A stretch of 64,000 nt of DNA. It comes from Clostridia bacterium (lineage in GTDB: Bacteria; Bacillota; Clostridia; Christensenellales; Borkfalkiaceae). Positions 1,089 to 60,400 of the stretch are shown here, one piece after another (within the stretch, counting starts at the first letter, position 1; the number at the start of each line of letters is the position of its first letter). Both the position numbers and the translations under genes were made by a program. The stretch spans positions 13,900-77,899 of the forward strand of contig JAFWBT010000019.1 in assembly GCA_017507005.1 (NCBI GenBank), in the 5' to 3' direction. The notes beneath the pieces are model-generated. The model worked only from the letters and a program-made list of their open reading frames with translations. It was not told the origin of the DNA and did not search any database.

Positions 1089-2711
1089 TTATAATCTTTC
1101 CCAAGCCTTTACGCCGCGCTTTTTCAGCCATACGGTTATCCCCGCCGTCGCTATCGCGTATACGCCCAAACATATCAAGAAATACCCCTTTGCCGTGCAT
1201 ACGGAGAGCAACGCGCCGTCTTTGATAAATAAGAGTATAATCGGCAACGCAAGCATACCAATAGAGGCAAACATAGACAGCATCGACGCTACGCTCTGTT
1301 TCACCGCCGCGGCTTCGCTCGTCCAGCGCAAGCTAGGGAATTTGAGATTGAGTGCCAAGCCCGACGTCGCCGTTAAACACACGAACACGAGTGAAAATAC
1401 GGGCAAAAGCAGGATATAAAAGAGTTCCAGCTCGAACACGTACGAGAACGTCGCGCAAACGAGCAAGGACGGAATCCCCGTGACGAGTACGTGCAACAAC
1501 GCTTTTGCGCGCAAAATTTGCCACGAGGTTGCGGGTAACGATTTCACTAACCACAGCGTTTCCCCTTCCAAGGACACGGACGCCGCGCTGATGATATTCA
1601 TCGTAGCAATCATACACGCCAACGCCGTCGCCAACAAACCCTTTATATCGGAATTTTCACCGCCAAGCATACCCATGTACGCGTCGAGCCCGAAAATATC
1701 TCCCTCGATAAGGGCATAACCGCACAAAACTAAGGCAAGCACCGCACCCAGAGATGCGTTGAGCAGGTATACGGGCGTTTTAAACAACCGCAACGCTTCT
1801 TTGCGTAATAATGCGTTCGTCGCAGACATGGTACGCGCATTTTTCTCTTTATACTTCATTTTCCGCTCGCCGCGGTTGGTCGTAGCCACACGCGCGTACG
1901 ATTTCGCCAAAAACAGATAACTGAGCGCAAACAGTCCGCCGAACATAAGCGTAAACACGAGCATAGGCAACGGCTCGCCTTTCGCCGCCAAGCCTAGCTG
2001 CGAAAAAGGATACAGCACCGTTTTCATCACGCTGCCTACCGCTTCGCCGTGCATCAACACGTAGTTTAAATAGTCGTTCACCTTTGAATACACGAAGAAG
2101 TACGCAATAAACACCACAATTGACAACGCGAGCGTAAAGATATTTTTTGCAGGCAATCTCGCCGTTATAACGGCAATCAGCCAACCCAAAAGACAGCAGA
2201 CCGCAACCGCAAACAGAGGCAAGATAAACAGTATTAACGCGCAGAACAACACGGAAAGCACCGAAACGCCTGCCACCGTGAAATAACAAATGGCGGTGGG
2301 GACAAACACCAACGCCTCGAAAAAGAAAGTGAGTACGTACAGCCCCAGCATACGGGTAAAGAGTATCATCCACGAAGGCACGGGCATAGCGAACAGCAGT
2401 TCGTTATCTTTTGCCTCGTACAGCTTTGATTTAGCCGCAAACACACCGCCGACGATTCCAAGCGACGTCGCTATCGCGCCCAGCAGCGCAAAATACGCCC
2501 AATCAAGCCCCACCGTTACGAGTGGCTCGCACAGTGTATCCGCTATCAGCCAAAAGGACGCGCCCACAGCCCCGAACGCATACACCATCAGCACCGCAAA
2601 TCCCAGCGCCGCCATGGGCGAACGGCGTTTGCCGTCTTTTCTATTCAAAAGGAAGAACGACGCCGTTGCTATCAGCTCTTTTTTTAATAACGCTTTCAGC
2701 ATACAAAACAC
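1089..2711 (-). CDS. Multi-pass ABC-2-type exporter permease
   Basis: 540 aa, highly hydrophobic with many predicted TM helices. Ends 4 nt before the start of the ABC ATPase gene upstream. Confidence 0.7.
   Translation of the reverse strand: MFCMLKALLKKELIATASFFLLNRKDGKRRSPMAALGFAVLMVYAFGAVGASFWLIADTLCEPLVTVGLDWAYFALLGAIATSLGIVGGVFAAKSKLYEAKDNELLFAMPVPSWMILFTRMLGLYVLTFFFEALVFVPTAICYFTVAGVSVLSVLFCALILFILPLFAVAVCCLLGWLIAVITARLPAKNIFTLALSIVVFIAYFFVYSKVNDYLNYVLMHGEAVGSVMKTVLYPFSQLGLAAKGEPLPMLVFTLMFGGLFALSYLFLAKSYARVATTNRGERKMKYKEKNARTMSATNALLRKEALRLFKTPVYLLNASLGAVLALVLCGYALIEGDIFGLDAYMGMLGGENSDIKGLLATALACMIATMNIISAASVSLEGETLWLVKSLPATSWQILRAKALLHVLVTGIPSLLVCATFSYVFELELFYILLLPVFSLVFVCLTATSGLALNLKFPSLRWTSEAAAVKQSVASMLSMFASIGMLALPIILLFIKDGALLSVCTAKGYFLICLGVYAIATAGITVWLKKRGVKAWERL
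1813..1844 (-). repeat. Dispersed repeat family, in-frame coding copy inside the permease
   Basis: 26 of 31 positions identical to intergenic copy f by hand alignment. Encodes ...NARTMSATNAL... in a predicted loop. Confidence 0.7.
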
Positions 2712-12437: not shown

Positions 12438-14654
12438 TTACACCTTTCTATCCGATTTGCAGGTGAGGTATACGATTTGATAGCGTTTGGATAATTCCTT
12501 GACGAATTTTTTGGCTTTTTCCGTCTTTTTGTCGTCAAAATTCGCAAACGGATCATCTAAGATTAGCGTCGGCAATTCTTTTTGATACAGCGCGTCCACC
12601 AGCGCAATACGCGTACAAAAATCTACCAGCTCCTTTTCACCGAGGCTGTAATAATCGAGCGAGCGCATTTGCCCCACCACCTCCATCAACGGCGCGCCGT
12701 CCGCTGAAAAACGCAACGGCTGGTATTTTTCGTCAAACTGTTTTAAATATTCCCGACAATTTTTCTCCACGGGCGCAAGATAGCGCGTCGCCATATTTTC
12801 CTGCGCGCGCAGTAGCATTTCCCGCGCCGTCCGCACGACGTACAAGCGGTGCTCTAAACGCTCTTTTTCCGCAAGCAGGCGTTCTTCCTCCGCCTCGATA
12901 TCCGCTTTGTCCGCGCGGTTTTCTTGGTTTTCCAGCTGCGCTTTCAAACGCGCGCGCTCGTCCACCAAGCCCTCTTTTTCGCGTTCTAAATCCTGTTTTT
13001 GGCGTTGTAGTGCGGAAATATCGTAACGGGTAGCGTTTTCCTCGCCGTCCTCTTTTAAGCCGGACAACTGCTTTTCATATTCCTGCATTGCCGCGCGATT
13101 TTTTTCGTATTTTACAATATTTTCCTTTATTGCCGACAGCGCCACGCGATAATCGTACAGCTCTTCAAAACGGAAATTATCCAAAAAGGCGCATATCGCG
13201 TTCTCCAAGCCCTGCAAACGGTTCTTTATCTCACCGTGTTGCTGTGTATATTGCTCGTGACAAAACTCTAAATCGGGCGCAAATTCTATCAGCCTTGCCT
13301 GTATCCTCGACACCTCTGCCTGCGTTTCGTTATAATGCAAGGATACGTCCGTATCGATATCGTCCTCGTTGTTCTTTTTGCCTCCCTTTGGCAATAATTT
13401 TACAAGCGAAATCAACAAACCCACGCCGCCAATTCCAAGCAAAATATACCCAAGCGCAGGCCGCGTAGGCATTTGCGTCGCGCCCAAAATCGCCATAAAC
13501 AAACACACGAACAGCCAAAATCCCGTCCGTTTCCCCTTGGGCGGATTTTTCTTACTGCTATGCGTTCGTCGCATACCTGCCCCGTCCATTTTGCTGTTTT
13601 TTTGCAAAACCAGCTCGTAGGAACGTTGCGCGTTTTCGCACGAAGCGAGCTGATTTTCCAAGGCTCTTTTTTCGCGAACGAGCGTTTCCGTTTCACGCAA
13701 TTTTTCCTCGACCGAGGCAAACTCCGCCTTTAACGCATAAAAATCCGTCACCGCTTTTTGCAGACCAACGACGTTGATTGTCGTTGGCTCGACTTTGCCA
13801 AAAAACGTCTGCAAAGCCGCTATTTCCGCGCTCGTTTCGTCCATACGAAGCTGTAAATTTCGCCGCGCCTCCGCGCGCGCCGCCGATTCGTTCAAACGGG
13901 AATACCGCTGTATTTCCCTTTCCACGACGTTGAGTTTTTCGCCCAAAGCCGCTATTTCTCTTTCCTTTTGCGCGATTTCCCCTTTCGTCTGCCGCGTTGC
14001 CGCCGCGTACTCGTCGCAAGCATTTTTCGCGCGTGCAAGCGTTTCCAAACGCTCGTCTATCTCATCCAGCTTTCCCTTAGACGGGCGACGTTTCGCGCGC
14101 AAATTACGCTCTGCGGCATCCAGCCGCTCTATCGCGCCTTTTGCGCCGTTTTCCCTGCCGTTATCTCCAAGCAATGCCAGCAGGCGACCTTTCATATCGT
14201 CGGGCAAGCCGTCCGTCACAATCTCGCTCTGCGGCACGTATACGCTACGCTGATAGCTCTCTCTATCCACCCCAAGCAATATCTCGCCCAGCCGTTCTAT
14301 CCTATCGCCAAAATCGTACGAGAGCATATTGTTCCCATCGTACAGCCTTACGACGTCCCCGCTCGGCGTTTTCCCAAACGTTCGCTCGATACGGTACGTC
14401 CGTCCTGCATACGAGAACACGAGCGAACCGCCAAACACGCCGCCTTGCCACGGCTCGTATTTAATACGGTCGTTCGCGCCAACGGATTTGCTGCGCCCAC
14501 CATCCATACCGTACAACATACATTTAATAAAATCAGCAAAAGTCGTCTTGCCCCAGCCGTTCTCCTCCTTGACGTTGGTAAGATCCGCCGACAAATCGAA
14601 CGAGCGATCGACAAACTTCCCAAAACCAGCAATATAACAGGATATCAGTCTCAT
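12438..14654 (-). CDS. SbcC/Rad50-like (YhaN-type) AAA ATPase with a central hydrophobic hairpin
   Basis: N-terminal P-loop ENGWGKTT, long coiled-coil-like Glu/Arg/Leu-rich arms, and C-terminal LILDDPFANFD (Walker B). Two hydrophobic helices lie at aa about 378-421. Confidence 0.8.
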   Translation of the reverse strand: MRLISCYIAGFGKFVDRSFDLSADLTNVKEENGWGKTTFADFIKCMLYGMDGGRSKSVGANDRIKYEPWQGGVFGGSLVFSYAGRTYRIERTFGKTPSGDVVRLYDGNNMLSYDFGDRIERLGEILLGVDRESYQRSVYVPQSEIVTDGLPDDMKGRLLALLGDNGRENGAKGAIERLDAAERNLRAKRRPSKGKLDEIDERLETLARAKNACDEYAAATRQTKGEIAQKEREIAALGEKLNVVEREIQRYSRLNESAARAEARRNLQLRMDETSAEIAALQTFFGKVEPTTINVVGLQKAVTDFYALKAEFASVEEKLRETETLVREKRALENQLASCENAQRSYELVLQKNSKMDGAGMRRTHSSKKNPPKGKRTGFWLFVCLFMAILGATQMPTRPALGYILLGIGGVGLLISLVKLLPKGGKKNNEDDIDTDVSLHYNETQAEVSRIQARLIEFAPDLEFCHEQYTQQHGEIKNRLQGLENAICAFLDNFRFEELYDYRVALSAIKENIVKYEKNRAAMQEYEKQLSGLKEDGEENATRYDISALQRQKQDLEREKEGLVDERARLKAQLENQENRADKADIEAEEERLLAEKERLEHRLYVVRTAREMLLRAQENMATRYLAPVEKNCREYLKQFDEKYQPLRFSADGAPLMEVVGQMRSLDYYSLGEKELVDFCTRIALVDALYQKELPTLILDDPFANFDDKKTEKAKKFVKELSKRYQIVYLTCKSDRKV
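13562..13603 (-). repeat. Dispersed repeat family, in-frame coding copy inside the sbcC-like gene
   Basis: Minus strand AAAAAAACAGCAAAATGGACGGGGCAGGTATGCGACGAACGC. 24 of 31 positions match copy d. Encodes QKNSKMDGAGMRRTH. Confidence 0.75.
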
Positions 14655-29339: not shown

Positions 29340-30130
29340 TAATGTGAGTAAATATCCCCCACTAAAGTGGGGGCTTTATTTTGCGCACTAAAGTGCGTGA
29401 ATACTGGCGCAGGCGTCCCAACGCCATCTTAACTCGCCTACTGCACACAAGCAAGCGGTAATTTATTTTTTCTTATTCCGATTTGATTCCAACCATTTTT
29501 TGAACGGGTCGTATATTCCACCATACTTATTTGGTTGGATATCAAATCTTCTGTTTCTTGGTGTTGGATATACTTCTGTACCGCTTGCTTGTTAGCACCT
29601 ACGGTGCTTACGTAATATCCGCGACTCCAAAAGTGCCTATTCCCTATTTTGTACTTCATGTGAGCATATCGCTCGAAGATTATCATTGTACTCTTACCCT
29701 TGAGATACCCCATAAACGATGATACTTTCTCATTCGGCGGTATGCTCACTAACATATGTATGTGGTCGGGCATTGCGTGAGCTTCTATGATTTCCACTTC
29801 CTTACGTTGACATAGTTCTCTCAATATTTTCCCAATATCTTCACGCAATGCCCCATAAATTATTTTTCTATGGTATTTTGGCGTGAACACGATATGATAT
29901 TGACATTTCCATGTCGTATGTGCTAAACTGTATGTATCGTTATTTTGATTTTTCAATTTTAACATCCTCCTTTGTGCTTACTTGTGTACGGTTGCGAGCC
30001 TTACATACAGTTTAGCATAGAGGAGCTTTTTTGTATAGCAAATGATAGGCTTGAAGCTAAAGCTATTTGCCACCAGCATAGCTGGTGGTTTCTGACAACC
30101 GCGAGTTCCCACTCGCGGTTGTTGCTGTAT
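29340..30130 (-). mobile_element. IS200-type insertion sequence (IS200/IS605 family, tnpA only)
   Basis: Y1 transposase gene flanked by subterminal hairpins. These are CCCCCACTAAAGTGGGGG and GCGCACTAAAGTGCG on the 3' side, and CCACCAGCATAGCTGGTGG and CAACCGCGAGTTCCCACTCGCGGTTG on the 5' side. Exact ends not determined. Confidence 0.75.
29438..29965 (-). CDS. tnpA: IS200/IS605-family Y1 transposase TnpA
   Basis: YHIVFTPKYHRK and MPDHIHMLVSIPP (HUH motif), with the catalytic Tyr region RGYYVSTVG. Confidence 0.9.
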   Translation of the reverse strand: MLKLKNQNNDTYSLAHTTWKCQYHIVFTPKYHRKIIYGALREDIGKILRELCQRKEVEIIEAHAMPDHIHMLVSIPPNEKVSSFMGYLKGKSTMIIFERYAHMKYKIGNRHFWSRGYYVSTVGANKQAVQKYIQHQETEDLISNQISMVEYTTRSKNGWNQIGIRKNKLPLACVQ

Positions 30131-30166
30131 AAAAAAAATGAGTTCAAACACATTGAACTCATTTTC
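30130..30166. terminator. Bidirectional terminator between the lipoprotein islet and the IS
   Basis: ATGAGTTCAA / TTGAACTCAT 10-bp stem flanked by A8 and T4. Confidence 0.65.
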
Positions 30167-30216
30167 ATGTTTTAAATTTAATAATTAATTATTCTTTTGT
30201 TCAATTATACTATCTA

Positions 30217-30747
30217 TTACCAAACAATAATTTCATTATTCTTATCAAGGGCACCATCCAAGCAATACACCCCGTAATTTCCTGTTTTGTAATCCCAATT
30301 AGAAGCCCTCAAAATCTTCTTCCACTCCGCCATCGTCCCACTATATTTAATACTTACAAGCGTTGAACATTGAGCAAAAGCGCCATTTCCAAAACCTATA
30401 TCAGGGCAACCCATAGTAATAAAACTTAAATTAGAACATTTTCTAAATGCTTCTACTCCGATATGTTCCATCTTTTCAGAAAGAACCAATTCTTCCATAG
30501 TTAAACACCCGCTAAACCCCTTCTTCTCTACCGTTGAAACAATTCGCCCATTAAAAATAGCAGGCAACTCAACTACCCTAGGCACATTCTCAATATTTGT
30601 TGCTTTTACGCTATACGTTCCATCTGCCAATAAAGTATAAGTGTAATATTCATCCTTAACAGTTTCTGGCTTTGAACAATTCACTAAACTTGGTATCAAA
30701 AAAAATATTATTACCGCCAAAATAAATGATTTTATTTTCTTCAACAT
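30217..30747 (-). CDS. Lipoprotein with BspA-type leucine-rich repeats
   Basis: Signal peptide plus lipobox-like LVNC. Repeated F..C..L..I pattern (GFSGCLTMEELVL, EAFRKCSNLSFITM, GAFAQCSTLVSIKY). The gene is AT-rich. Confidence 0.65.
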   Translation of the reverse strand: MLKKIKSFILAVIIFFLIPSLVNCSKPETVKDEYYTYTLLADGTYSVKATNIENVPRVVELPAIFNGRIVSTVEKKGFSGCLTMEELVLSEKMEHIGVEAFRKCSNLSFITMGCPDIGFGNGAFAQCSTLVSIKYSGTMAEWKKILRASNWDYKTGNYGVYCLDGALDKNNEIIVW

Positions 30748-30761
30748 AAAAACCTCCTTAC

Positions 30762-31262
30762 TTAAATCCTTGATAAATTTAATTCTAATTTAATTTTTAT
30801 TTCTTCCCGTTTTGTATATATAAACGGAGCTAAATTTTTAAAGAAACAAACATCTTCAGCATATAAAACTATCTCATATATACCAGCCGACAATAACTCT
30901 GCGTCTTTTCCCATCGAACCTATCGTTTCTATATAGTTTTGACGCTTAAAATTCAATCCATTTATTTCTCCTACCCCCATTTCCCCTGTTAACTCTGCAT
31001 AATGAAAATCGTCTTTCGCTGTGAACGTCATTGTTATTTTTACATCAACATCTTCCGCTCTCTTATCATAATAATAGTCAATCATTTTAAAAACATCATC
31101 TTGATTCCAAATATTATCAGCCGTTTCATAAACAACTTCTTCAATAAAATAGTCAACATAATAAGTATTATCCATCTGCTCTTGCTTACACCCAGCAAAT
31201 AGTAACGTACAAAAACAAATTAAAACAGCTATTATTCCTTTCATTGCGATACCTTTCGACAT
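30762..31262 (-). CDS. Hypothetical lipoprotein
   Basis: Signal peptide with lipobox LFAGC. AT-rich, no recognisable domain. The start may be the ATG at 31244. Confidence 0.55.
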   Translation of the reverse strand: MSKGIAMKGIIAVLICFCTLLFAGCKQEQMDNTYYVDYFIEEVVYETADNIWNQDDVFKMIDYYYDKRAEDVDVKITMTFTAKDDFHYAELTGEMGVGEINGLNFKRQNYIETIGSMGKDAELLSAGIYEIVLYAEDVCFFKNLAPFIYTKREEIKIKLELNLSRI

Positions 31263-31409
31263 TATATTAATCGTTTACTAATGATTTATTAATGATAGAT
31301 TATCAAAAATAATTACGCATGTCAAGTATTTAATAGTTAAAACCGAAAAAAATAAACCCGCCGTTGACTTTGGGCGAGTTTATTCTTTTCGGTTTTTGTT
31401 TTATCCGAC

Positions 31410-46030: not shown

Positions 46031-46075
46031 GGGCAGAAAAACGCGTTCAACGCATACCTGCCCTCGTCGTTTTTT
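46031..46075 (-). repeat. Dispersed repeat family, copy d (intergenic, between the KH gene and rimM)
   Basis: Minus strand AAAAAACGACGAGGGCAGGTATGCGTTGAACGCGTTTTTCTGCCC. GGGCAG and CTGCCC form a perfect 6-bp closing stem. Confidence 0.9.
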
Positions 46076-48780: not shown

Positions 48781-50088
48781 TTATAAAATGAAATGCAAAA
48801 CGTCGACGAGGATTGCAAACCCGAACAGCGCGATAATCCCGATAAAGTGAATCATTGTTTCCACCTTGCGATTGACGGGCTTTTTCCGTATCCACTCGAT
48901 AATGCAGAAAATCACCTTACAGCCGTCGAGGGCAGGGATAGGCAACAAATTAAACACGGCGAGGTTTACGCCGATAAACGCGGCAATATTGAGGAAGGAA
49001 TACACGCTCATCGTTGCCGCCTGCGACGTCACTTGTATCGTCGTAACGGGGCCGCCCATTGACGTAATCGCCATTTTACCCGTCAACAGCTCGCCCAAGC
49101 TACGCAGCACCGTGCCACCGATTTTCCACGAATACACGAACGCCGAGCCTATCGTATCGAAAAAGCTTTCCTTTACCAAAATGCCGCCGAACACGTAGTT
49201 TTGCGAATCCAAGCCAAGCGCCTGATAAGCAGGGGCAAGGTCGGTCATATTCTTAAAATTGCAATCGACGGAAAGAACGATATCCAACGTTTTCGTCTGC
49301 CAACCGTTTTCCTCTTTCCGCAAGATTTCCACGCGCACGCTTTCGCCTGCTTTTTTACCCGACAGGATATCCACGTAATCAGTGGACATATAGATATCTT
49401 TATCGTTGATAGAAAGGACGATATCGTTCGCCGAAAGCATCGTTTCCGACGTAATCGGCGGCGCGCCCTCGCCTACGTACGCCACGTACGAGTGGATACT
49501 GCCGTAACAGCCGAACATAATCAAAAGCAACAACAGCGCTAAAAGATAGTTCATCGTCGCGCCCGCAATCAATACGATAATGCGTTTCCAAGGCGGCTGA
49601 TCGTTAAAACGCTCGCCTTTCGGCTCGGGATATTCCGTCTCTTCTTTTTTTGTTTTTTTCTCGTGTTCTTTGCTCGCGTCCACAGCGACGTTTTCATCGT
49701 TCGTCGCGGACATGCCCCCGTCGTTTTGCGTTTTTTCGTTCGCATTAGGGTATTCGGAAAACGGCTCTTCCTCGTCCGTTTCTTCTTCCTTTTTTACGGC
49801 ATTTTCGTCCGTTTCGTCCTCGTATTCGTCCTCGCCGTCAAAGGCGCAATAGCCGCCCAAAGGAATACAGCGCAAAGCGAACAATTCGCCCGTTTTCTTA
49901 CTGCGTTTTTTAAAAATCGCAGGCCCGAAACCAACGGCAAATTCGTTGATTTTAAAACCGAGCGCTTTGCCTGCGACGTAATGCCCAAATTCGTGTATCG
50001 TTACCATAGCGAGCAATATCGCCACGGCAAGCACGATGCCGCCTATGCTCCGTAATATTCCCGATGCTAATATATTCGTCAAAACCAA
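48781..50088 (-). CDS. rseP: RIP site-2 metalloprotease RseP/RasP with a long acidic loop insertion
   Basis: HEFGHY, PDZ-like middle, C-terminal NLLPIPALDG. Roughly 75-aa Asp/Glu/Lys-rich segment after IPLGGY. Confidence 0.9.
   Translation of the reverse strand: MVLTNILASGILRSIGGIVLAVAILLAMVTIHEFGHYVAGKALGFKINEFAVGFGPAIFKKRSKKTGELFALRCIPLGGYCAFDGEDEYEDETDENAVKKEEETDEEEPFSEYPNANEKTQNDGGMSATNDENVAVDASKEHEKKTKKEETEYPEPKGERFNDQPPWKRIIVLIAGATMNYLLALLLLLIMFGCYGSIHSYVAYVGEGAPPITSETMLSANDIVLSINDKDIYMSTDYVDILSGKKAGESVRVEILRKEENGWQTKTLDIVLSVDCNFKNMTDLAPAYQALGLDSQNYVFGGILVKESFFDTIGSAFVYSWKIGGTVLRSLGELLTGKMAITSMGGPVTTIQVTSQAATMSVYSFLNIAAFIGVNLAVFNLLPIPALDGCKVIFCIIEWIRKKPVNRKVETMIHFIGIIALFGFAILVDVLHFIL
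49691..49736 (-). repeat. Dispersed repeat family, full-length in-frame copy inside rseP
   Basis: Minus strand AAAACGACGGGGGCATGTCCGCGACGAACGATGAAAA. The 5' arm matches copy d at 15 of 17 positions and the core matches the permease copy at 16 of 17. Encodes QNDGGMSATNDEN. Confidence 0.75.
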
Positions 50089-50176: not shown

Positions 50177-51322
50177 TTATTTGCCCTGAATATACTCGTT
50201 CGCCAAGGCGCGCGCACGCAAATCCGTCGCCAGCAACGTTTCGTAATCGCGCACGGGCGCGCGTTCCGTCTTTTTGAGCGCCTCTTCGATAGTGTTCGCA
50301 ATCTCGGTGAAAGCTATCCGTTCTTCCAAAAAGGCGCGCACCGCCACTTCTCCCGCGCCGTTGAGCGCACAGGCGTAATTGTCGCCAAGCTCCGCCGCGT
50401 ACAGCGCCATATCGTAGCAAGGGAAACGTTTTCGCTCCAACGGCAAAAACCGTATCGAGCCAAGCGTTTCAAAATCCATAGGCTTCAAGCCGCAATCGTA
50501 TCTATCGGGATAGGTGAGCGCGAGCTGGATAGGCAGCTCCATCGACGGATAGCTCATCTGCGCCAAAACACAGCCGTCGTCAAATTCCACCATAGAGTGG
50601 ATAATGCTCTCGGGTTGTACGAGGGTGTGGATTTTAGACAAGGGCGCGTCGTACAGCCATTTCGCCTCAATCACCTCAAAACCCTTATTCAACAGCGTCG
50701 CGCTATCAATCGTAATCTTTGCGCCCATCTGCCACGTAGGATGTTTCAACGCGGACATGGGTGTCACGTTTTGTAATTGTTCCGCCGTATACGAATAGAA
50801 AGGACCACCGCTCGCCGTGATAATCAGCCGCCGAAAAGGCGCGTCCGCACGGAAATGCAACGCCTGCCAAAGCGCGGAATGCTCACTATCCACGGGCATT
50901 AAATCGAGCTGTTTTTCTTTGATTTTGCCCATAACAAGCTCGCCGCCGCAAACGAGCGTTTCCTTATTCGCCAGCGCAATCGGTTTATTTTCTTCAATCG
51001 CCCTAAGGGAATATTTCAAGCCCGCAAAGCCCGTCGCCGCCACGAACGCGATATCGCCGTAGGAAATCGCTTCTTCCGCCGCTTTTTCACCGTAGGCAAA
51101 TTTTACACCGTCGGGAATCTCCCCTGCGATACGTTTCCCTACGCTTTCGTCAACGAGCGCCGCGTACTCGGGGCGAAACTCGTTCACCTGCTGTAAAAAA
51201 ACTTCCGCAGAAGAATTTGCCACAAGGCTGCGTATTTTAAATTTATCGGGGTGTCGACGCGCCACCGAACAGACCTGCCGTCCAATCGAGCCCGTCGAGC
51301 CGATAAGAGCTATATTTTTCAT
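50177..51322 (-). CDS. dxr: 1-deoxy-D-xylulose 5-phosphate reductoisomerase
   Basis: GSTGSIG, LANKE, ALKHPTWQMGAKITIDSATLLNKG. Confidence 0.95.
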   Translation of the reverse strand: MKNIALIGSTGSIGRQVCSVARRHPDKFKIRSLVANSSAEVFLQQVNEFRPEYAALVDESVGKRIAGEIPDGVKFAYGEKAAEEAISYGDIAFVAATGFAGLKYSLRAIEENKPIALANKETLVCGGELVMGKIKEKQLDLMPVDSEHSALWQALHFRADAPFRRLIITASGGPFYSYTAEQLQNVTPMSALKHPTWQMGAKITIDSATLLNKGFEVIEAKWLYDAPLSKIHTLVQPESIIHSMVEFDDGCVLAQMSYPSMELPIQLALTYPDRYDCGLKPMDFETLGSIRFLPLERKRFPCYDMALYAAELGDNYACALNGAGEVAVRAFLEERIAFTEIANTIEEALKKTERAPVRDYETLLATDLRARALANEYIQGK

Positions 51323-52460: not shown

Positions 52461-52510
52461 GGAAGAAAACGCCGTCAACGCAGACATGCCCCTTCCATTT
52501 CTCGTTTTTT
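52461..52510 (-). repeat. Dispersed repeat family, copy e (starts at the uppS stop codon)
   Basis: Minus strand TAAAAAAACGAGAAATGGAAGGGGCATGTCTGCGTTGACGGCGTTTTCTTCC. GGAAG and CTTCC can close a stem. Confidence 0.85.
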
Positions 52511-60337: not shown

Positions 60338-60400
60338 TTTTCAACGCGTACACGGTAGCCTCGTTCTTAATTCAACGCATACCTGCCCTATCCGTTTTCA
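60338..60400 (-). repeat. Dispersed repeat family, two tandem copies (g1, g2) abutting an RBS
   Basis: Minus strand AAAACGGATAGGGCAGGTATGCGTTGAA TTAAGAACGA GGCTACCGTGTACGCGTTGAA AAGGAGGGGGA ATG. Confidence 0.85.

What the first reader, a model, noticed from the sequence alone, without database searches (positions are those of the whole stretch)
49609..49839. Full-length repeat copy embedded in frame in an acidic loop insertion of RseP
RseP carries a roughly 75-aa Asp/Glu/Lys-rich insertion between IPLGGY and the next TM segment. From what I recall, this loop is variable between homologues.

Inside the insertion, at 49691-49736, the minus strand reads AAAACGACGGGGGCATGTCCGCGACGAACGATGAAAA. The 5' arm matches intergenic copy d at 15 of 17 positions. 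The core matches the permease copy at 16 of 17. It is translated as QNDGGMSATNDEN.

The TT-to-AC variant of the core (GCGACGAACG rather than GCGTTGAACG) is shared by all three sense-orientation coding copies. This resembles the in-frame residence of Rickettsia palindromic elements in ORFs.
Basis: partly seen in the sequence, partly recalled or inferred. Interest (0 to 1): 0.62.

Follow-up and report, generated by a model that had tools for sequence, protein, structure and literature searches.

The report
Old repeat copy translated inside RseP loop
A 37-base copy of a DNA word that occurs about 350 times in this uncultured gut bacterium really does lie in frame in a floppy loop of the RseP protease, but it is an old copy kept at the DNA level across the genus, not a recent jumping-element insertion.

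Summary
rseP (48781-50088, minus) encodes an intact M50/PDZ site-2 protease. Its cytoplasmic loop after IPLGGY is about 65 aa longer than in solved RsePs and in other families of the order.

Nt 49691-49727 is a statistically secure copy (23 bits, E 6e-5, profile trained without it) of a dispersed DNA word with about 346 copies (core CAKGTAYGCGTTGAA). The word is restricted to Candidatus Scatosoma. Here it is translated as QNDGGMSATNDEN in a predicted disordered stretch.

The RPE-like reading is only partly right:
- **The element did not make the loop.** It supplies about 12 of about 65 extra residues. All 81 Scatosoma sequences have the expansion, but only about 35 show the element.
- **It is not a fresh insertion.** Orthologues carry it at the same spot, with near-invariant GGG-GGC codons, in two reading frames and in all four family subtypes.
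- **Copies elsewhere have no indel.** Copies in dxr and an ABC ATPase overlie conserved segments, and the in-frame TGA is always edited out.

So copies are made and kept at the DNA level by substitution or templated replacement, not transposition. The genus lacks RAYT transposases and type IV pilus genes, so neither REP nor classical uptake-signal membership fits. The maintaining agent is unknown.

The parts
48781..50088 (-). rseP: intact site-2 protease, 435 aa, with HEFGH, one PDZ domain and NLLPIPALDG
   Evidence: ORF. Pfam Peptidase_M50 4.8e-57 plus PDZ_2. PDB RseP 7W6Y 1.5e-37. AF2 mean pLDDT 84.7.
49609..49839 (-). Asp/Glu/Lys-rich loop (aa 84-160) between the IPLGGY beta-strand and TM2. 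Residues 91-159 have no counterpart in solved RsePs.
   Evidence: 105 aa against 40 aa. pLDDT is below 50 for residues 90-147. The loop is expanded in all 81 Scatosoma sequences, 54-146 aa.
49698..49718 (-). 21-nt core of the repeat copy, GGGGCATGTCCGCGACGAACG (subtype C with the ACGA variant)
   Evidence: 23.3 bits, E 5.7e-5.
49719..49727 (-). 5' arm AAAACGACG (family A-tract plus G at position -4)
49690..49728 (-). Passenger peptide Q121-N133, QNDGGMSATNDEN (sense frame 1, the commonest coding configuration)
   Evidence: 77 of 180 coding copies use this frame.
50743..50763 (-). Family copy inside dxr, encoding TPMSALKHP in a conserved segment
   Evidence: 14.3 bits. Protein context.
52472..52492 (-). 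Intergenic copy between uppS and cdsA, positionally conserved in many species
   Evidence: Folds as a hairpin, z -2.76.
46044..46064 (-). Intergenic copy d downstream of the rpsP/KH genes, positionally conserved in many species
   Evidence: 36.3 bits. Folds as a hairpin, z -2.44.
1814..1834 (-). Permease coding copy encoding RTMSATNAL, with the ACGA variant
13563..13583 (-). Coding copy in the 738-aa ATPase, sense frame 0 (DGAGMRRT). The ACGA variant removes the in-frame TGA.

Best explanation
The segment is a genuine, vertically inherited copy of a Scatosoma-specific dispersed DNA word: A-tract, then (GGGG or YACC), then CAKGTAYGCGTTGAA, then an A/T-rich tail. There are about 346 copies in 1.56 Mb.

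**Role in RseP.** The copy lies in a disordered, cytoplasm-facing acidic loop that tolerates almost any hydrophilic sequence. It is read through as a passenger peptide with no role of its own in the protease.

**Shown here.**
- The word is conserved as DNA, not as peptide.
- It sits at the same loop position in many species, in two reading frames.
- Different species carry different family subtypes at this site.
- Family copies elsewhere overlie conserved protein segments without any indel.
- Protein-level selection then edits them: no TGA in frame 0, and Leu-to-Thr (TTG to ACG) in frame 1, as in RseP.

**Inferred.** Copies are created and refreshed by a motif-favouring DNA-level process. This would be short-patch templated replacement or gene conversion from other copies, and/or biased fixation of motif-improving substitutions. 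The shared consensus across species points to recognition by a conserved sequence-specific factor, most likely a DNA-binding protein.

My split for the agent:
- about 45%: a DNA-binding factor with conversion or selection;
- about 20%: uptake-type drive;
- about 10%: RNA-level function;
- the rest unknown.

The element did not create the loop. At most it added a roughly 12-aa unit, and two units 42 nt apart in some species.
For: **Membership.** 23 bits, E 6e-5, with a profile trained without the copy. No decoy hit reaches 12 bits.

**Genus restriction.** 17 of 18 sampled genus genomes carry the word. None of 12 genomes from other families do, and none in the sister genus.

**Orthology at the loop site.** 18 of 81 orthologues score at least 12 bits at nt 308-416 of rseP, and 17 more show weaker remnants. 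They are scattered over the RseP tree, with at least 16 state changes.

**DNA-level rather than peptide-level constraint.**
- The Gly-Gly pair is GGGGGC in 25 of 32 loop cases. It is 10 of 341 elsewhere in rseP, and 2.4% genome-wide (p 9e-25).
- L064 and L066 carry the same DNA in frame 0 (DGAGTS) instead of frame 1.
- Subtypes A, B, C and D all occur at this one site. Genome-wide these subtypes are tightly linked haplotypes (odds ratio 17.7, p 1.6e-30).

**Indel-free copies.**
- dxr KIKGAGTRLMP: the ANKE-to-DSEH distance is 27 in all compared sequences.
- ABC exporter FYDVSGGQVRVDGQNV aligns without gaps to paralogues.
- Window dxr copy TPMSALKHP.

**Editing by coding constraint.** TTGA occurs in 0 of 22 frame-0 copies, against 103 of 142 intergenic copies. 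ACGA is enriched 6-fold in sense coding copies.

**Loop tolerance.** pLDDT is below 50 for residues 90-147. Loop length ranges from 54 to 146 aa.

**Fixed spacing suggests a protein-recognised DNA face.** Same-strand neighbours sit 31-32 nt or 42-44 nt apart with unrelated spacers. The two-copy RseP loops (L043, L064) are 42 nt apart.
Against: - The agent is not identified.
- Linked subtypes and copy numbers from 0 to 92 within the genus are also what an amplifying selfish element would give.
- For the RseP site itself, the loop is too variable to prove substitution rather than an ancient insertion.
- Weak remnants (3-10 bits) are near noise and rest on position plus the AAAACGAnGGGGG arm.
- Gene calls used for coding and intergenic counts are my own rough ORF calls.
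- The genome is a 71%-complete MAG.
- About 75% of copies lie on the leading, sense strand. The G-rich composition of the word can explain this, but an RNA-level role would explain it too.
Confidence: 0.62

Rival explanations
1. RPE/MITE-like event. A small mobile element inserted in frame into the rseP loop in an ancestor of the motif-bearing Scatosoma. It has since been inherited and decayed.
For: - The copy is in frame and lies in a loop that varies in length.
- Some loops hold two units.
- The family has linked subtypes and very uneven copy numbers among species, as amplifying elements do.
- Eight overlapping inverted pairs form perfect hairpins.
Against: - No empty site exists for exactly this segment.
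- Copies in dxr and the ABC ATPase have no indel.
- Copies use five reading frames.
- Y1/RAYT transposase is found in 1 of 16 genus genomes.
- Pure decay cannot keep 17-19 of 21 matches and invariant synonymous sites across species that are only 49-69% identical in RseP.
- Pure decay also cannot switch a site between family subtypes.
Confidence: 0.12
2. Uptake-signal (USS/DUS-like) drive. The word is preferred by a DNA-uptake receptor, so motif-improving alleles spread by transformation. The RseP loop is simply a tolerant place for it to accumulate.
For: - The word is clade-wide with hundreds of copies.
- About half the copies are in genes, at poorly conserved positions, with frame bias and stop avoidance. 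This matches what is described for USS/DUS (PMC2817400).
- Copies are positionally stable between species.
- Copies are enriched at convergent gene ends and occur as inverted pairs.
- ComEC is present in 15 of 16 and DprA in 16 of 16 genus genomes.
Against: - The T2SSE ATPase (ComGA/PilB/TadA class) and the prepilin peptidase are each present in only 1 of 16 genus genomes, on one contig of G002. The same searches ring in 12-13 of 14 control genomes.
- Linked subtypes within one genome, and fixed 32/42-nt arrays with unrelated spacers, are not USS traits.
- Density is about 1 per 4.5 kb, lower than USS/DUS.
- Two genus genomes have 0-1 copies yet keep ComEC.
Confidence: 0.2
3. RNA-level element. 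The word acts in transcripts as a terminator or processing hairpin, or as a binding site for an RNA-binding factor. The rseP copy would be an intragenic functional RNA site.
For: - About 70-75% of copies are in sense orientation.
- Many intergenic copies sit just after stop codons and fold with a downstream complement plus a U-run.
Against: - The RseP copy has no structure (z +0.28).
- 25-30% of copies are antisense but equally conserved.
- In lagging-strand genes, sense copies are not favoured: 12 sense against 16 antisense.
- There is no Rfam match.
- A closing helix is present in only 15 of 142 intergenic copies by a 6-mer test.
Confidence: 0.08
4. The conserved NDGG(R/M)xAxN peptide is a functional RseP motif, and its likeness to the repeat is secondary.
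For: The peptide recurs at the same loop position in many orthologues.
Against: - Synonymous sites are fixed: GGGGGC in 25 of 32 cases.
- The same DNA is read in another frame in L064 and L066.
- More than half of the orthologues lack it.
- The residues are predicted to be disordered.
- The same DNA occurs about 350 times elsewhere in the genome.
Confidence: 0.03

Closest known systems
Uptake signal sequences (USS of Pasteurellaceae, DUS of Neisseriaceae)
   Same: - A short DNA word with hundreds of copies, shared by related species.
- About half the copies lie in genes, arise by substitution at weakly constrained positions, and show frame bias.
- Copies are positionally stable.
- Some copies form inverted pairs at gene ends.
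   Different: - The conserved core is longer (15-21 nt) and the density lower (about 1 per 4.5 kb).
- Subtypes are discrete and linked.
- Direct arrays occur at fixed 32/42-nt spacing.
- The host is a Gram-positive-type Clostridia lineage.
- The genus lacks the pilus ATPase and prepilin peptidase that all known uptake systems of this kind need.
- Uptake itself is untested.
Rickettsia palindromic elements (RPE) and other intragenic MITEs
   Same: A repeat copy lies in frame inside an essential-type gene, is read through, and sits at a structurally tolerant place.
   Different: - RPEs are about 100-150 bp palindromic insertions that add a conserved peptide in one frame (PMC10969869).
- This word is 37-48 nt and not palindromic in rseP.
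- It is used in five frames.
- It is found without indels in conserved segments.
- It is far older than a single insertion followed by decay would allow.
REP/BIME and REPIN-RAYT systems
   Same: - Short dispersed word with subtypes.
- Mosaic arrays of subtypes.
- Some hairpin-forming inverted pairs.
- Enrichment at 3' ends of genes.
- Long-term vertical persistence.
   Different: - REPs are extragenic, whereas 52% of copies here are genic.
- No RAYT/Y1 transposase in 15 of 16 genus genomes.
- Arrays here are direct repeats, not alternating in orientation.

Membership tests
RPE / intragenic MITE insertion | Element presence equals extra residues relative to orthologues that lack it (an empty site) | tested here: not met
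   No orthologue lacks exactly the segment. The dxr and ABC ATPase copies have no indel. The RseP site alone is inconclusive, because the loop cannot be aligned.
RPE / intragenic MITE insertion | Palindromic element of about 100-150 bp with terminal inverted repeats | tested here: not met
   The element is 37-48 nt. The RseP copy folds no better than shuffled sequence (z +0.28).
RPE / intragenic MITE insertion | One conserved encoded peptide or frame | tested here: not met
   Sense frames hold 22, 77 and 25 copies. Antisense frames hold 36 and 19. Frame 0 is used at the RseP site in L064 and L066.
USS/DUS uptake signals | Over-represented word shared by related species, in genes and between them | tested here: met
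USS/DUS uptake signals | Type IV pilus or pseudopilus uptake machinery, plus ComEC and DprA | tested here: not met
   ComEC is in 15 of 16 and DprA in 16 of 16 genus genomes. T2SSE is in 1 of 16 and Peptidase_A24 in 1 of 16. Controls are positive.
USS/DUS uptake signals | Preferential uptake of DNA carrying the word | not testable with these tools
   The organism is uncultured.
REP/REPIN-RAYT | Extragenic location | tested here: not met
   180 of 346 copies lie inside called CDS.
REP/REPIN-RAYT | Cognate RAYT (Y1 transposase) in the genome | tested here: not met
   PF01797 is found only in G000, as an IS200 in the window. It is absent from 14 motif-bearing relatives.
RseP / site-2 protease (host gene) | HExxH in TM1, PDZ domain, NxxPxxxLDG in TM3 | tested here: met
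   HEFGH and NLLPIPALDG are present. Pfam M50 plus PDZ. PDB RseP matches.
Known RNA families (Rfam) | Match at the gathering score | tested here: not met
   There are no Rfam matches in the window.

The most novel reading that the evidence does not exclude
The word belongs to a so-far undescribed kind of genome-wide DNA-level drive in a pilus-less gut Clostridia genus. A conserved factor recognises a 15-21-nt word. Copies are written over existing sequence, including conserved coding segments, by short templated replacement. As a result, one orthologous site such as the RseP loop cycles among family subtypes over evolutionary time.
Probability: 0.3. Interest if true: 0.8.

Novelty: new variant of a known kind. 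Interest (0 to 1): 0.52.

Why it matters
Taken alone, the RseP copy is harmless passenger sequence in a tolerant loop. Its value is as a natural experiment. One hypervariable coding site was followed across 81 species. A 21-nt word is held at the DNA level while the surrounding codons randomise, is read in two frames, and swaps between family subtypes.

Together with indel-free copies in conserved enzymes, this separates "repeat written into genes by substitution or conversion" from "repeat inserted into genes". It also shows that the uptake-signal label is not safe for this family, because the pilus genes are missing.

If the maintaining agent is found, it would be either the first uptake-type signal outside Proteobacteria or a new drive or recognition system.

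Tried and rejected
- **Rfam scan of the window:** nothing.
- **RAYT/IS200 as mobiliser:** only one genome of 16 has a Y1 transposase.
- **Recent recombination to explain why WIN and distant L024 share an identical 21-mer:** loop identity is 0.66 against 0.68 for the rest of the gene, so there is no signal.
- **Regular chromosomal spacing of copies:** CV 0.89 against 0.95 +/- 0.06 for random placement, P 0.18, not significant.
- **Helical-period test of array spacings:** it cannot distinguish periods of 9.5-11.5 nt. Only the two preferred distances, 32 and 42 nt, are solid.
- **Orientation bias as evidence of function:** a word with 10 G and 3 C on a G-skewed leading strand is expected to be biased anyway.
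- **Sigma-54, ECF -35 and cre readings of the core:** considered by eye and dropped, because spacing or consensus did not fit.
- **Mini-ORF (ATG CGT TGA) reading:** dropped because the T of the ATG (core position 10) is C in more than half of the copies (59% of 346), which removes that start codon.
- **RNA sequencing runs for transcription evidence:** only DNA metagenomes were found.

Full report
**The observation.** The minus strand of 49691-49727 reads AAAACGACGGGGGCATGTCCGCGACGAACGATGAAAA, once in the window. It lies in frame in the 435-aa ORF 48781-50088(-) and encodes Q121-NDGGMSATNDE-N133.

The ORF is a complete site-2 protease. It has HEFGH, one PDZ domain and NLLPIPALDG, and matches Pfam Peptidase_M50 at 4.8e-57 and PDZ_2. 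It also matches the solved RsePs 7W6Y, 9J82 and 7W6X. In those alignments, query residues 14-90 and 160-192 face chain residues that are only 5-8 positions apart. Residues 91-159 are therefore an insertion.

Across the order, the P(L/I)GG..N stretch is 40 aa in most families and in the sister genus, but 105 aa here. An AlphaFold2 model built on 60 orthologues is confident overall (pLDDT 84.7) but falls below 50 for residues 90-147. The strand before the loop is the membrane-reentrant beta-loop, which enters from the cytoplasmic side (PMC4597795). The insert is therefore inferred to be a disordered cytoplasmic loop.

**Is it a repeat copy?** The genome (1.56 Mb, 33 contigs) holds a dispersed family. 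Its consensus is aAAA.Ga.g-GGGG-CA(G/T)GTA(C/T)GCGTTGAAcg followed by an A/T-rich tail.
- With a profile built from 53 close copies, the RseP copy is marginal (12.5 bits, E 0.14). At that score there are 187 real hits against 1 in a reversed-genome decoy.
- With an iterated profile from which the RseP copy was withheld, it scores 21-23 bits (E 2e-4 to 6e-5). No decoy hit reaches 12 bits.

The family has 346 copies at 12 bits or more, about one per 4.5 kb. By my own ORF calls (87% coding), 180 copies lie inside CDS, 142 are intergenic and 24 straddle gene ends. The same rseP sequence recurs with 0-3 differences in independent gut metagenomes, so it is not an assembly artefact.

**Orthologues.** Eighty rseP orthologues were fetched, all from Candidatus Scatosoma or unnamed Clostridia MAGs and 49-69% identical.
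- All have an expanded acidic loop (54-146 aa between IPLGGY and PPWKRII). The blocks PF(E/A)E and EYPEPKGERF are conserved and are not part of the repeat. The element therefore did not create the loop.
- At nt 308-416 of rseP, always between those two blocks, 18 of 81 sequences carry a copy at 12 bits or more. A further 17 carry weaker remnants that keep the AAAACGAnGGGGG arm.
- On an RseP tree built without the loop columns, these are scattered through both major clades, with at least 16 state changes.
- Clades without the loop copy also lack the flanking copies, and some genus genomes have 0-1 copies in total.
- Loops without the element carry unrelated sequence of similar length. There is no empty site lacking exactly this segment.

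**DNA or peptide?** Three results show that the DNA is what is conserved.
1. The Gly-Gly of the motif is encoded GGG-GGC in 25 of 32 loop cases. The figure is 10 of 341 for Gly-Gly elsewhere in the same genes, and 2.4% genome-wide (p 9e-25).
2. In L064 (two copies) and L066 the same DNA is read in another frame, as DGAGTS.
3. Genome-wide, the variable positions are tightly linked into subtypes (position 6 against position 10: odds ratio 17.7, p 1.6e-30):
   - A: GGGG-CAGGTATGCG
   - B: YACC-CRTGTACGCG
   - C: CATGTCYGCG, the RseP type
   - D: CAGGGTTGCG

   At the single RseP site, different species carry A, B, C or D. This holds even within the window's own clade: WIN has C, L001 has A and L003 has D. 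Drift from one insertion does not predict a site hopping among the family's discrete haplotypes. Templated replacement does.

**How copies arise in genes.** Just upstream in dxr, 31 orthologues encode K-I-K-G-A-G-(T/I)-(R/D)-L-M-P with aaaatcaagGGGGCAGGTACGCGTTTAATG, scoring up to 29 bits.
- The ANKE-to-DSEH distance is 27 residues in these, in the window's own dxr (which lacks this copy) and in nearly all outgroup families. The word therefore overlies a conserved segment without any indel.
- Species show graded states (ATCGAT, ATTCGT, ACGCGT), and TTGA is replaced by TTTA where TGA would be in frame.
- An ABC exporter ATPase carries the word across FYDVSGGQVRVDGQNV and aligns without gaps to its paralogues.
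- The window's dxr has another copy across TPMSALKHP.

Genome-wide, TTGA is present in 103 of 142 intergenic copies but in 0 of 22 sense frame-0 copies. In frame 0 it removes the stop. In frame 1, as in RseP and the permease, it turns Leu into Thr. The word is therefore written at the DNA level and then trimmed by protein-level selection.

**What the family is not.**
- There is no Rfam match.
- A Y1/RAYT transposase exists only in this genome's IS200 and in none of 14 motif-bearing relatives. More than half the copies are genic. REP/REPIN membership therefore fails.
- The closest behavioural analogue is the uptake signal. It too is clade-wide, substitutional in genes, frame-biased, placed at weakly conserved positions (PMC2817400) and stable in position.
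- However, while ComEC and DprA are present, the T2SSE ATPase and the prepilin peptidase are each found in only 1 of 16 genus genomes, on one contig. Both searches ring in 12-13 of 14 control genomes.
- Linked subtypes are also not uptake-signal traits. Nor are direct arrays at fixed 31-32 nt (12 of 35) or 42-44 nt (10 of 35) spacing with unrelated spacers. The two-copy RseP loops (L043, L064) obey the same 42-nt rule. Fixed spacing with free spacers points to a protein reading one face of the DNA.

**Verdict.** The copy is translated in a tolerant loop, but it is an old, DNA-level-maintained member of a genus-specific word family. It is not an RPE-like insertion that built the loop. The process that keeps the word, whether conversion among copies, selection for a binding site or an unconventional uptake bias, remains inferred. 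I favour a DNA-binding factor with templated replacement, at moderate confidence. No paper in the searchable library contains the core 15-mer, and Scatosoma appears only in MAG catalogues.

Noticed in passing
G000 contigs C19, C32, C17, C30, C2, C23 (outside the window): Copy density is very uneven between contigs, from 0-0.2 per 10 kb on these to 4-6 per 10 kb on C1, C11 and C13. The poor contigs may be mis-binned, recently acquired, or a distinct chromosomal region.
   Followed up: no
genome-wide; window 60338-60389: Same-strand neighbouring copies prefer 31-32 nt or 42-44 nt centre-to-centre spacing, with unrelated spacers. Arrays often mix subtype B with subtype A and reach up to four units.
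   Followed up: partly
G002 contig C73 (same genus): This is the only T2SSE ATPase and prepilin peptidase found in 16 genus genomes. They sit about 2 kb apart on one contig, which may be a mobile island or a binning contaminant.
   Followed up: no
window 29340-31300 (C7:43457-43813): The IS200-type Y1 transposase here is the only one found in 16 genus genomes, so it is a recent arrival unrelated to the repeat family.
   Followed up: partly
L024 nt 356-376 of rseP, against window 49698-49718: WIN and the phylogenetically distant L024 share an identical 21-mer (GGGGCATGTCCGCGACGAACG). Closer relatives carry other subtypes, and overall loop identity gives no sign of recent transfer.
   Followed up: partly
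G004 and G013 (same genus): These two larger genomes (1.9-2.0 Mb, 89-96% complete) have 0-1 copies of the core 15-mer, against 92 exact copies in G000. Both keep ComEC and DprA.
   Followed up: partly
L083 (G046) and L086 (G058), other families of the order: Acidic expansions of the same RseP loop (75-77 aa against 40) arose independently in lineages without the repeat family. The loop is therefore expansion-prone in its own right.
   Followed up: no
window 49694-49729, in metagenome contig depth: The summed depth of contigs at 80% identity or more drops over the variable loop. It rises again exactly over the element, because other copies and other species' loops match it.
   Followed up: no
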